This document shows, piece by piece, positions 6,459-61,459 of a stretch of DNA of 64,000 nt. The position numbers and the translations under genes are program-made. The DNA is from Octopus sinensis. Lineage: Eukaryota. The first letter of the stretch is position 1, and each line of letters begins with the position of its first letter. The stretch lies in NCBI RefSeq assembly GCF_006345805.1, contig NC_043001.1, positions 59,892,001 to 59,956,000 on the forward strand, read 5' to 3'. The notes under the pieces are model-generated. The model had not been told where the DNA came from. It ran no database searches and saw only the letters and a program-made list of their open reading frames with translations.

Positions 6459-6531
6459 TCTTACTGAAGAGCCAGCCTGAGTAAATAAATACTATTTTTA
6501 TTACTGAATTTGGCGAAACTGCAGTATAAGA
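6459..6531 (+). ncRNA. Minimal type-I hammerhead ribozyme (copy 1)
   Basis: TCTTA CTGAAGA GCCA...TGGC GAAA CTGCAG TA|TAAGA; predicted cleavage after 6526. Confidence 0.85.
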
Positions 6532-6862
6532 AAAGTTAAGTTTGTAAAAGTTTTTAATTTTCATCTCACTAAATTTATCCAGCTATTGTGTATCTAGTGC
6601 ACTCTTCGCCTTGAATGTAATGATATATGTATAATATATGGCGTGTACTGGTACACCGGCGATTATAATTAATTTTATTGTATCGCATTTATCTTTGTTT
6701 ACATATTCTCTCGATAAATTTCTGACCGTTAGACGATATACCACAATCCCCTATTTTGTCGGGTTTGTTCTGAGTCTGCGCAGTGTTTTGAATAGTTTAG
6801 AAAGAGCATTTCGATAGACGCACATGGGTCTATTGATATGGTCTTCCCATCATTAACAGGAA

Positions 6863-6935
6863 TCTTACTGAAGAGCCAGCCTGAGTAAATAAATACTATT
6901 TTTATTACTGAATTTGGCGAAACTGCAGTATAAGA
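6863..6935 (+). ncRNA. Minimal type-I hammerhead ribozyme (copy 2)
   Basis: Same sequence as 6459-6531; predicted cleavage after 6930. Confidence 0.85.
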
Positions 6936-7830
6936 AAAGTTAAGTTTGTAAAAGTTTTTAATTTTCATCTCACTAAATTTATCCAGCTATTGTGTATCTA
7001 GTGCACTCTTCGCCTTGAATGTAATGATATATGTATAATATATGGCGTGTACTGGTACACCGGCGATTATAATTAATTTTATTGTATCGCATTTATCTTT
7101 GTTTATATATATATATATATATATATATATATATATATATATATATATATACACATACATACATATACGTGTATGTAAGCAAAGATTCAGTAGAGTCAAC
7201 GACCATCTGAGAGCTGGGAGTAAGAGAACGCTCGCGTTTGTTTAGGCATCCCTCTAGAAGAAAATCTCTGATTTACCACCTGCGATGTCGATTGAATCCA
7301 ATGATGTATTCCGAATCTTTTGTGCAAATGCCTACATTGTTTAGAGATTGGGTTTAAGTCTGTGCTAGGTTTTTCCTAACTCAAAACCTTTCAGGCATCG
7401 CTTGATTTTGAACATCTCTGTTACGTGTTGCATAATACGCCTGGTGTAGTGGACTAACATCAAACACTCAATAAAATATTTCATGATGAAATGAAGCCAA
7501 AGGTCAGCATGCGTGAGGTGTCCATCGTGGACACATTTATACAAAATGGTATGGAACACTAGCAAGACTGAAAACCACACTTTTACTGATTTAAAAAAAA
7601 GATTGAAACTGAAAGGCATCTACCATGTATAAACTCAACGTCTGACTGTCTGTCTGTCTCTCTCTCTCTTTCTCTCTCTTTCTTTCTCCCTCTCTCTTTC
7701 ACTGCATATAATATAATTGATATAAAATATACATACATGTATATTATGAGGATAACAATAGTAGTAATAACAACAATAATAATAATAATAATAATAATAA
7801 TAATAATAATAATAATAATAATAATAATAA

Positions 7831-8386
7831 ATGTCCTGATGCAGTACCAGGCAGTGGCTCTCATGGCTTCTGATCTTAACTGATTGGAAGTGTTATCATG
7901 TACATTGTTTTGTCTTGGTATAAAAGATGGGCTACAGCAAATATTCTGCTCAATACCACAGATTTGCTTGTCAGTTGTTTGACCTTAACCAGTTGAGCAT
8001 GTCCCTTCGTGGCTGACAATATGTGCATCTCTGATCACGAGCAGAAGTAGTGGGGGAGCATCATGGCCATGTGTTGAGAGGGATTCTTTGGGGTTTGAAT
8101 AGTTCACCTCTGGAAACATGGGTGGTTCTTTCAACATCCTTAAACAACCCTTATTCAGGGACCGTTTGAGCGGAATGGGCTACTCAATCTCAAGAAAATT
8201 CTAACTGGGCCCCACCTGCAAGGTCATGTGCTGTTTATCTTGATATGAGATCACCATGTCGCGCACATATGGTTGTGATGCATGTGCCTGGTGTACCTTT
8301 ATCAGACGGGTAGTCATGATGGGTATATTGGGCTTCGTATATTTTACCCCAGTGTCACTTTGATGGCATGCACTGCTCTCTCACTC
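7831..8386. mobile_element. Non-coding interspersed element inserted in an (AAT)n microsatellite (possibly Dong/R4-dependent)
   Basis: Complex 556-bp sequence with long (AAT)n on both sides (about 7775-7830 and 8387-8523). Lies directly upstream of a Dong-like RT. Confidence 0.5.
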
Positions 8387-8523
8387 AATAATAATAATAA
8401 TAATAATAATAATAATAATAATAATAATAACAATAATAATAATAATAATAATAATAATAATAATAATAATAATAATAATAATAATAATAATAATAATAAT
8501 AATAATAATAATGATAATAATAA

Positions 8524-59862: not shown

Positions 59863-59906
59863 GCACCGGACCGCGGTTTCGAGATTATTGTCTCTTATCA
59901 ACGGGC
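59863..59906 (-). ncRNA. Minimal hammerhead ribozyme, U3-A8 core variant
   Basis: Reverse complement: gcCCG TTGATAA GAGA caataa TCTC GAAA CCGCGG TC|CGGtgc. Confidence 0.75.
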
Positions 59907-60220
59907 GGTGACCACCAGGTCACGATGGAAGGCAAGGCTTCCCTTTGCTAATACCTAAAGGGCACAGAAAGTGTGTCTAAAGCCAGCTGGAGACGTCGAT
60001 CTCCTGGGGCTAAAAGCTACAGTAACACCCCCACTTTGTGGTTAGCCATATTGAGATGGCTGTTACACTTTACGTTGTTGAGCGGTTACTGTATACATCT
60101 CGCTCTGAGATTTAATAATGCTTACAGTCAGTTTTTCGAAATCAGTGGCAGACGTCACTAGAAAAACTCTTATATATTTGCAAAGCAAGCCTTACCTTCC
60201 ATCGTGACCTGGTGGTTACC

Positions 60221-60264
60221 GCCCGTTGATAAGAGACAATAATCTCGAAACCGCGGTCATGTGC
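60221..60264 (+). ncRNA. Second copy of the U3-A8 hammerhead (helix I damaged)
   Basis: gcccg TTGATAA GAGA caataa TCTC GAAA CCGCGG TC atgtgc. Confidence 0.6.
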
Positions 60265-61392
60265 GTATCACTAAGGCTTACGAGGAAGGGGTGGCTCCCC
60301 TTTGCAAATACCTAAAGGGCACAGAAAGTGTGTCTAAAGCCAGCTGGAGACGTCGATCTCCTGGGGCTAAAAGCTACAGTAACACCCCCACTTTGTGGTT
60401 AGCCATATGGCTGTTACACTTTACGTTGTTGAGCAGTTACTGTTTACATCTCGCTCTGAGATTTAATAATACACATATATATATATATATATATATATAT
60501 ATATATATATATATATATATATATATATATACATACATACATTTATTGAACCTATGAACATCTAGACATTTTTTTATTTCCGAGCATATTTTCGAGCTCA
60601 TGTTTCACTAGTATTTCGCTAAAGACCATCTCATTCTGTTATGCGGAATTCAATAGGAAAAACGTTCTCATAACGGAATTCTCTGGAATGTGTAATTTTA
60701 GAAGAAGGGGCAAGCCGTTATCCTCTGATTAGAGCATCGTAAATATTTTAGACCCAATTCACAAAATGAGATTATATAACTGGCACAATAAATTCAACAA
60801 CAAAATGCATGTCTCTTATGAAATTATTTAGTTTGAACGGTTCCAATGCGATGATCATATCACTTCGATTGTCGCAGTTGGTATAATTTGTGTATTTTGA
60901 TAAATATGTCTAATCTAATAATCCAAATTTATCATTATTCGTTACATCCTTCATTACCCATGTTTTCGTATCAATGTATGTATGTATGTATGTATGTATG
61001 TATGTATGTATGTATGTATGTATGTATGTATGTATGTATGTATTTATTTATCTATCTATCTAGCTAGCTAGCTAGCTAGCCATTTACTTATCTGTCTTTC
61101 TGCCTGTCTCGCTGTCTGTCTGTCTCTTCTCTCTCTCTCTCTCTCTCTCTCTATATATATATATATATATATATATATATATATATATATAGCAAATAAG
61201 AAAACGGAGAGGATATAAAATCGACAGGCATCACCCTATAAACATTCCAGTATGTCGATTTATTCAAAGATATTGGATGAATATACACACATGTATGAGT
61301 GAAAGGTGTGAGACCATATAAGCATATAGAGACAAATGAGCAATTGAGCAAAAGAACAAACTGGCAATAAACTGAATGGGTATGCATGTGCT

Positions 61393-61459
61393 AGTCCTTT
61401 ACGGCCGTTTCTGCCAAGGGGCAACGAAATCTTCCAGGTAATCTCTAAGTTGTAGGACT
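61393..61459 (-). ncRNA. Hammerhead 3' half; CUGANGA core not recognisable
   Basis: Reverse complement: AGTCCT...TGCC cctt GGCA GAAA CGGCCG TA AAGGACT. Confidence 0.35.

What the first reader, a model, noticed from the sequence alone, without database searches (positions are those of the whole stretch)
6519..61408. Family-specific palindromic helix-III hexamers: a possible dimerisation barcode
Seen: between GAAA and UH, the families carry different self-complementary hexamers: CTGCAG (6519/6923), CACGTG (10331), CCATGG (about 24816), CATATG (30761), CAGCTG (41767), CCGCGG (60251) and CGGCCG (about 61402). Near-palindromes also occur: TCACAGGTGA, CAACTG, CGGTCG. Known: minimal HHRs with an unstable helix III cleave as dimers through such palindromes. 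Inference: retaining palindromicity while the sequence changes indicates selection. Different hexamers would restrict dimer activation to tandem copies of the same family.
Basis: partly seen in the sequence, partly recalled or inferred. Interest (0 to 1): 0.75.

Follow-up and report, generated by a model that had tools for sequence, protein, structure and literature searches.

The report
Penelope hammerhead palindromes, not a barcode
The short palindromes are real parts of hammerhead-type RNA motifs carried by Penelope-like jumping genes and a tandem repeat likely derived from them; they likely let two copies pair and cut each other, a published design, but unrelated families share the same palindrome, so it is not a family barcode by itself.

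Summary
Seven of the eight named hexamers sit between GAAA and UH of type-I hammerhead families. CCATGG (24816) does not: that family's helix III is CTAG. 30761 and 61402 are 3' halves only, and CAACTG is a decayed CAGCTG copy. Palindromicity is real: in a palindrome-blind scan of 1.2 Mb, 7 of 12 six-base helices III were perfect palindromes and the other 5 were one change away. Related subfamilies swap hexamers through two-sided changes, as they do in helices I and II. The CATATG family lies downstream of an RT-like/GIY-YIG ORF (Penelope-like); the CTGCAG family is a 404-bp retrozyme-like tandem. The dimer reading is supported by inference and was published in 2011-2014. The barcode reading is weak: 12 families use 8 hexamers, and 4 of 66 pairs share one (random expectation 4.1). 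G-U intermediates occur, and helix I separates families almost as well. Exclusion of heterodimers is predicted, but as a by-product. Other windows of this scan reached the same verdict on other genomes. Ordinary.

The parts
6453..7110 (+). Head-to-tail array of a 404-bp non-coding unit (one full unit plus 243 bp), flanked by (AT)n; retrozyme-like
6459..6531 (+). Complete type-I hammerhead motif; helix III CTGCAG 6519-6524; predicted cut after 6526
6863..6935 (+). Identical second hammerhead; helix III CTGCAG 6923-6928; the only same-strand tandem pair among the named sites
5931..6021 (+). Decayed copy of the CAGCTG family (helix III CAACTG 6011-6016); inverted 3'-half partner with CAGCTG at 5762-5767 on -
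10300..10344 (+). Complete hammerhead motif, core CCGATGA, helix III CACGTG 10331-10336
9911..9955 (-). Inverted partner of 10331; GAAA changed to GAAG (decayed)
24816..24851 (-). 5' half of a hammerhead of the CTAG family (core at 24846); the CCATGG at 24816-24821 is unrelated sequence past the breakpoint, not helix III
28663..28728 (-). Complete hammerhead motif with 10-nt helix III TCACAGGTGA
30749..30773 (+). 3' half of the CATATG-family hammerhead (30761-30766) inside an inverted duplication of a Penelope-like pLTR end; core lost in this copy
33169..33256 (+).
36940..37023 (-). Relative of 33174, helix III CGGTCG 36946-36951
41685..41777 (+). CAGCTG-family hammerhead (41767-41772); long helix II decayed in this copy
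43024..43087 (-). Relative of 28722 with the same TCACAGGTGA helix III but a different helix I
59866..59904 (-). Complete hammerhead motif, U3-A8 core variant (TTGATAA), helix III CCGCGG 59871-59876
60223..60261 (+). Inverted partner, helix III CCGCGG 60251-60256; helix I broken in this copy
61385..61445 (-). 3' half of the CGGCCG-family hammerhead (61402-61407); core absent in this copy

Best explanation
These are type-I hammerhead motifs in the ends of several repeat families, one shown to be Penelope-like and the rest likely so, whose palindromic helix III is predicted to pair between two copies of the same RNA so that the pair would cleave, and whose hexamers likely differ between families through ordinary compensatory drift rather than selection for a code. 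Shown: the motif anatomy, the palindrome excess, the two-sided changes, the RT-like/GIY-YIG ORF upstream of the CATATG motif, the 404-bp tandem arrays, and the sharing of hexamers. Inferred: a lone motif has only a 2-bp helix III and stays uncut. In a tandem or multimeric transcript the two A-N6-U stretches form an 8-bp antiparallel duplex, and each core then cleaves the other copy's UH site, using its own 5' helix-I strand with the partner's 3' strand. A palindrome is the only sequence that lets identical copies do this, so selection for homodimer cleavage fully explains it. Changes pass through G-U states, and two of the three hexamer swaps seen inside blastn-joined clusters equal a pair of CpG transitions. 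Different families would mostly fail to cross-activate, through helices III and I together, as a side effect. Most genomic copies are truncated, inverted or decayed relics.
For: Blind scan: 7 of 12 six-nt helices III were palindromic, the other 5 one change away; decoys gave 3 hits, none palindromic. Homodimer -7.0 to -14.1 against monomer +1.9 to +2.9 kcal/mol. One clade (CCGCGG/CTCGAG/CACGTG, with a CTAG relative) aligns at 67% mean column identity and shows two-sided changes in 5 of 6 helix-I pairs, 3 of 4 helix-II pairs, the C3-G8 pair and both inner helix-III pairs. A 644-codon ORF with RT-like motifs and a GIY-YIG end lies 244 bases upstream of a CATATG hammerhead, with an inverted copy at its 5' end (L331); Atlas neighbours at 0.95-0.97 carry HTH_animal/RVT_1; GIY-YIG E=5e-4 in L152. 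Sharing at the random rate: 4 of 66 pairs against 4.1. Wobble states CATGTG (L332, L106) and CGATTG (3 copies) pair 8 of 8. Published precedent: PMC4209133, PMC3088659, PMC7229834.
Against: No cleavage was measured here. The PLE link is direct for 1 of the 7 searched families only; the other six showed no family-linked ORF in 3-kb loci. Pfam did not call the L331 or L332 RT, and the GIY-YIG score was below the curated cut-off. The collision test has only 12 families, so a weak deficit would be missed. Published in vitro activity of such dimers is low (PMC4209133), and 8 of 9 Xenopus dimers were inactive (10.64898/2026.07.22.740005). Two-sided changes come from only three lineages.
Confidence: 0.82

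Rival explanations
1. Selected barcode: hexamers (with or without helix I) have been driven apart so that co-expressed families cannot activate or cleave each other.
For: Each family keeps one hexamer (for example 32 of 35 CATATG sites and 26 of 28 CACGTG sites; biased, because loci were found by likeness). Different palindromes are predicted to be orthogonal (0 of 120 fully pair). Of the 4 family pairs that share a hexamer, 3 have at most 1 bp of cross helix I. The three subfamilies of one clade differ in helix III.
Against: One CAGCTG pair has full helix III plus a 5-bp cross helix I. Helices I and II change as much as helix III. Related elements at 28722 and 43081 keep the same helix III while helix I differs. 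Tandem neighbours are same-family by origin, so there is little to select against.
Confidence: 0.08
2. The motifs cleave as monomers (helped by tertiary contacts or proteins) or not at all, and the palindrome has another cause, such as a DNA- or protein-recognition site or symmetric CpG decay.
For: Most copies of six families are solo or inverted within 1.5 kb (same-strand pairs in 3, 0, 0, 0, 1 and 5 of 30 loci each). CACGTG-CATATG and CGATCG-CAATTG each equal two CpG transitions. TCACAGGTGA can form a marginal 4-bp monomer hairpin (+0.4 kcal/mol).
Against: The palindrome varies freely in sequence and length (2, 4, 6, 8 nt), which does not fit a fixed binding site. CCGCGG-CTCGAG-CACGTG needs transversion pairs. 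Solo and inverted copies are the expected dead products of PLE insertion, and pLTRs 2-3 kb apart would lie outside the loci. A single min-HHR showed no cleavage while dimers showed some (PMC4209133).
Confidence: 0.08
3. Ascertainment artefact: the first reader picked palindromes after GAAA by eye.
For: 24816 is such a false pick. Several GAAA-palindrome-TH sites have no core nearby.
Against: Blind scan and context test; family-wide conservation.
Confidence: 0.02

Closest known systems
Minimal and small-palindromic-helix-III hammerheads in pLTRs of metazoan Penelope-like elements (Cervera and De la Pena 2014, PMC4209133; Lunse et al. 2017, title seen only)
   Same: Type-I topology, short helix I, palindromic 15.2-16.2/loop 3, many families per genome with covariation, U3-A8 core variant, opposite-strand pairs 100-700 bp apart, mostly solo truncated copies, location downstream of an RT/GIY-YIG ORF (CATATG family).
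   Different: Here a 6-nt insert between A15.1 and U16.1 is the largest class (12 of 32 blind hits), often with long AT-rich loop 2 (40-100 nt) and C4 cores; the strict min-HHR has no loop 3. These particular families were not checked against repeat databases.
Non-LTR retrozymes (Cervera and de la Pena 2020, PMC7229834; Li, Clavereau and Pollet, bioRxiv 10.64898/2026.07.22.740005)
   Same: The CTGCAG family is a non-coding, AT-rich, head-to-tail repeat with one type-I hammerhead per unit, dispersed in arrays of 1 to about 9 motifs.
   Different: The unit is 404 bp (upper edge of the range); the hammerhead has a long loop 2 rather than the canonical loop 1-loop 2 form; circular RNA is not shown; array 3' ends are fixed about 180 bases past the predicted cut.
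Double-hammerhead of ASBVd and newt satellite 2 (Forster 1988, cited second-hand) and repeat-type hammerheads of Aedes/Nematostella (Perreault 2011, PMC3088659, Fig. S8 legend)
   Same: Unstable helix III rescued by pairing of palindromic stem/loop III between two copies; palindromic character tabulated across several ribozymes.
   Different: Different host elements; no family-specificity claim in the passages read.

Membership tests
Type-I hammerhead ribozyme | CUGANGA core (or C3-G8 to U3-A8 covariant), GAAA and UH joined by helices I-III, helix I open | tested here: met
   Met in window copies 6464, 6868, 10306, -59901, 5934, 33174, -28722 and in family copies for 30761, 41767, 61402; not met for 24816 CCATGG
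Type-I hammerhead ribozyme | Covariation in the helices | tested here: met
   11 of 15 pairs with two-sided change, 7 distinct rows from three lineages
Type-I hammerhead ribozyme | Match to an Rfam hammerhead model at gathering score | tested here: not met
   0 matches in the window; the long loop 2 and short helix III variants may fall outside the models (inference)
Type-I hammerhead ribozyme | Site-specific self-cleavage after UH | not testable with these tools
   needs in vitro transcription or RNA end mapping
Dimer-type (double) hammerhead | Unstable monomer helix III with palindromic stem/loop | tested here: met
   +1.9 to +2.9 monomer against -7.0 to -14.1 kcal/mol homodimer; blind excess
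Dimer-type (double) hammerhead | Same-strand tandem copies | tested here: inconclusive
   Met for CTGCAG (11 of 22 distinct places with two or more complete motifs); rare within 1.5 kb for the other six families
Penelope-like element | Single ORF with RT and C-terminal GIY-YIG | tested here: met
   CATATG family only: L331 644-codon ORF, Atlas HTH_animal/RVT_1 look-alikes, GIY-YIG E=5e-4 below cut-off; Pfam RT not called
Penelope-like element | Hammerhead-bearing pLTR 3' of the ORF, with an inverted or direct 5' copy | tested here: met
   L331 -784 and +3021; L150, L152
Penelope-like element | ORF link for the other six searched families | tested here: inconclusive
   no family-linked ORF in 30 loci of about 3 kb each; inverted-pair layout fits
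Penelope-like element | RT phylogeny within a PLE clade; pLTR intron | not tested
   no tree built
Non-LTR retrozyme | Short non-coding tandem unit (about 170-400 bp), low GC, one type-I hammerhead per unit | tested here: met
   404-bp CTGCAG unit, arrays at dispersed loci, 94-100% identical full units
Non-LTR retrozyme | Expressed as linear and circular monomer RNA | not testable with these tools
Family-specific dimerisation barcode (proposed) | Hexamer unique to each family; fewer shared hexamers than random | tested here: not met
   12 families, 8 hexamers, 4 of 66 pairs shared against 4.1 expected
Family-specific dimerisation barcode (proposed) | Different hexamers cannot pair | tested here: met
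   computed only: 0 of 120 hetero pairs fully pair; not assayed

The most novel reading that the evidence does not exclude
Helix III and helix I together form a two-part self-recognition key that is under selection to stay orthogonal among co-active Penelope-like elements and their retrozyme parasites, so that each lineage processes only its own RNA; new subfamilies would escape relatives by re-keying both helices through G-U intermediates. Only 1 of 66 family pairs is predicted to cross-assemble with a full helix III, and only in one direction.
Probability: 0.08. Interest if true: 0.55.

Novelty: new member of a known kind. Interest (0 to 1): 0.17.

Why it matters
As it stands it adds families of a known motif and a clean natural series of compensatory changes (CACGTG-CATGTG-CATATG; CGATCG-CGATTG-CAATTG; CCGCGG/CTCGAG/CACGTG/CTAG) that supports dimer-type cleavage in Penelope-like elements. 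The young, 404-bp CTGCAG tandem is a convenient substrate for testing dimer dependence. If the selected-key reading were true, it would be an RNA-level self/non-self system among retroelements and a natural set of orthogonal split ribozymes, but the data here give no sign of selection for it.

Tried and rejected
Rfam scan: 0 matches. Reading 24816 CCATGG as helix III: rejected. Reading 30761 as a complete hammerhead or a stand-alone hairpin element: its apparent helix II is an inverted duplication and the core is missing, but it is a PLE-end fragment. GIY-YIG fragments beside CTGCAG arrays in L281 and L285 lie beyond (AT)n and belong to another element, so they were not counted as a link. Pfam on the L331/L332 ORFs gave no RT call, and the PDB search gave nothing meaningful. 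blastp of L331 against another PLE-like RT fragment was not significant (E=0.15). Sequencing runs: no RNA holder listed; contigs of 4 runs only guessed to be RNA cover the 404-bp unit, 3 as a closed loop, which tandem DNA also gives, so this is not used as evidence. The blind sample stopped at 1.2 Mb, so the family table is a small sample. Lunse et al. 2017 could not be read; it may already contain palindrome-swap or heterodimer tests. A search for hammerhead + heterodimer + palindromic + retrotransposon gave 2 irrelevant papers; no paper proposing a family barcode was seen, within this library only. Supplementary figures of PMC4209133 and PMC3088659 (alignments of helix III across families) were not opened and bear on how much of the hexamer list is already in print. 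The CTAG and CAGCTG anchors were loose and caught some unrelated sites.
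Full report
Setting. The window lies at G000:C5:59892001-59956000 in a 2.72-Gb, microsatellite-rich genome. Its longer ORFs look like fragments of mariner-type and non-LTR retroelements (two carry Pfam RVT_1; the finer labels are from memory). Rfam found nothing at gathering score, so the motifs were tested with descriptors of my own and with genomic copies.

Observation. All eight hexamers are where stated. Seven sit between GAAA and UH, 61402 on the minus strand. 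A type-I descriptor with no constraint on helix III returned complete motifs at 5934, 6464, 6868, 10306, 33174, -28722 and -59901, plus one doubtful row at -22127. Genome searches with seven window stretches gave 76 to 1541 first-look candidates each, 40 scored and 30 fetched per query. They show the following. 60251 belongs to a family with a fixed TTGATAA core, the U3-A8 covariant, and CCGCGG; the plus copy has lost helix I while its inverted partner is intact. 30761 is the 3' half of a CATATG family that has a full CTGATGA motif elsewhere; the window copy is an inverted duplication. 41767 is a CAGCTG family with a long helix II, and CAACTG at 6011 is a decayed member of it. 61402 is the 3' half of a CGGCCG family (11 complete copies matched, 7 with CGGCCG). 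24816 is wrong: the family reads GAAA-CTAG-TC and the window copy breaks off before it (part of the output was cut). The CCATGG side had no family in the DNA held.

More than chance? I took 120 evenly spaced 10-kb stretches chosen without looking. At score 8 or more the blind scan gave 32 hits against 3 in reversed decoys. Twelve had a 6-nt helix III: 7 perfect palindromes, 5 one substitution away; these come from about 8 families. An earlier version on 100 stretches gave 7 of 10, with 0 palindromes among 16 hits in three shuffles. Without any descriptor, GAAA-CNNNNG-TH was palindromic in 42 of 159 cases against 513 of 5566 for the other NNNA contexts (p=6e-10), though two contexts scored higher and repeat copies inflate the counts. 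Twenty of the 32 hits had other helix-III lengths, and palindromes of 2, 4 and 8 nt and near-palindromes of 7, 9 and 10 nt occur, so hexamers are one class among several.

What carries them. In L150 and L152 a GIY-YIG-like ORF end lies about 280-300 bases upstream of the CATATG motif on the same strand (E=5e-4 and 0.015, below the curated cut-off). That protein has 150 of 150 scored matches in the genome. One of them, L331, holds a 644-codon ORF with RT-like motifs and the GIY-YIG end, a CATATG hammerhead 244 bases downstream and an inverted one at the 5' end. Pfam did not call its RT, but the nearest Atlas clusters (0.95-0.97) carry HTH_animal (30-73% of members in four of the six rows shown) and RVT_1 (12-42% in three). 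This is a Penelope-like element. The CTGCAG family is a 404-bp non-coding unit in head-to-tail arrays: 22 distinct places among 30 loci, 11 with two or more complete motifs, one array of about nine units. 5' ends vary, and the 3' end lies at unit position 243-244 in 19 of 22 places. That fits a non-LTR retrozyme. For the other five families no linked ORF was found; their solo and inverted-pair layout matches that described for truncated PLEs, so PLE origin is inferred.

How it likely works. With A15.1-U16.1 closing, a lone motif has a 2-bp helix III (+1.9 to +2.9 kcal/mol); two copies form an 8-bp duplex (-7.0 to -14.1). In the double hammerhead each core would cleave the other copy's UH, with helix I formed across copies (established model, recalled and as described in PMC4209133). 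Selection for self-complementarity is visible: the CCGCGG, CTCGAG, CACGTG and CTAG families are homologous over about 140 bases (67% mean column identity), and the three hexamer subfamilies show two-sided changes in both inner helix-III pairs with all cells paired, but equally in 5 of 6 helix-I pairs, 3 of 4 helix-II pairs and C3-G8 (7 distinct rows, three lineages). Other clusters join CACGTG with CATATG and CGATCG with CAATTG. Wobble states exist: CATGTG in L332 and L106, and in the 33174/37019 clade CGATTG in 3, CGATCG in 2, CAATTG in 2, and CGGTCG, CGGTTG and CAGTCG in 1 each of 10 homologous sites (an eleventh row was an unrelated match). CATGTG, CGATTG and CGGTCG pair 8 of 8 at about -6 kcal/mol. 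Two of these swaps equal two CpG transitions, so mutation bias can supply them (inference).

Barcode test. Among 19 hexamer groups, 12 had a perfect palindrome; 7 singletons (5 one-off, 2 two-off) were left out. The 12 use 8 hexamers. CACGTG, CAGCTG, CGTACG and CGATCG each occur in two families not joined at 70% identity over 40 bases. That is 4 of 66 pairs against 4.1 expected from 16 equally likely hexamers; no sharing at all would have had probability 0.003. A looser listing shows further clusters with CAGCTG and CACGTG and an upstream core, judged by eye. But helix I must also match across copies: only 8 of 66 family pairs have 3 or more cross pairs in either direction; of the 4 pairs sharing a hexamer, 3 are separated by helix I and one (CAGCTG) could assemble one way. 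Specificity is therefore a joint by-product of helices I and III. Tandem copies on one transcript are same-family by origin, so there is little need for a code. The test has low power against a weak deficit.

What is known. PMC4209133 (parts 1-2 of 4 read: abstract, results, discussion, start of methods) reports PLE hammerheads in consensus families with covariation, the palindromic nature of 15.2-16.2 and loop 3, the U3-A8 variant, opposite-strand pairs, no monomer and low dimer cleavage. PMC3088659 (passages; Fig. S8 legend only) tabulates palindromic stem/loop III for dimer formation and the natural U3-A8 change. PMC7229834 (passages) defines non-LTR retrozymes and dimer-dependent axolotl motifs. 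The preprint 10.64898/2026.07.22.740005 (part 1 of 5 and passages) derives retrozymes from pLTRs and found cleavage in 1 of 9 dimers. PMC6765202 and PMC6466107 (passages) review the dimer model. Lunse 2017 was seen only as a title in reference lists. No barcode proposal turned up. Eight earlier notes of this scan on other genomes reached similar verdicts; they are AI notes, not independent support. The helix-I cross-test was run after I saw them.

Verdict. New members of a known kind; interest 0.17.

Noticed in passing
window 6453-7110; L281-L310: The 404-bp CTGCAG family is very young (all 40 listed matches to a 111-bp probe were 100% identical). Arrays end at the same internal point (unit position 243-244, about 180 bases past the predicted cut) in 19 of 22 places, running into (AT)n, with variable 5' ends. 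This would fit priming at an AT microsatellite on a circular or multimeric template.
   Followed up: partly
window 33169-33256 (+) and 36940-37023 (-); L126, L141, L010: A hammerhead clade whose helix III varies among CGATCG, CGATTG, CAATTG, CGGTCG and CGGTTG; CGATTG in three copies suggests that a G-U wobble state was itself amplified.
   Followed up: partly
L331:724-3134 (G000:C2:93719200-93723200): Near-complete Penelope-like element with a long Asn/Ser-rich linker between the RT-like and GIY-YIG parts and an inverted 5' pLTR; clade not determined.
   Followed up: partly
L192-L220 (CGGCCG family): The long helix II (about 90 nt) contains a second CTGAAGA heptamer inside its loop in many copies; role unknown.
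   Followed up: no
L043, L104, L117, L196, L238, L286; window -28680, -43041: A class of hammerheads with 8-10-nt helix III of the form TC...GA (TCACTGTGA, TCRGTCCGA, TCACAGGTGA) that could act as marginal monomers or as mismatched dimers.
   Followed up: partly
window 385-1402 (-), 3829-5569 (-), 8524-9741 (+), 34137-36232 (-), 46373-48969 (-), 51110-52411 (-): Broken ORFs resembling a mariner-type transposase and several non-LTR reverse transcriptases (RVT_1 confirmed for two ORFs at 8524-9205; other labels recalled).
   Followed up: no
window 3589 (-): GAAA-CACGTA-TT inside a perfect local inverted repeat next to an 18-bp tandem; no hammerhead core; not examined.
   Followed up: no
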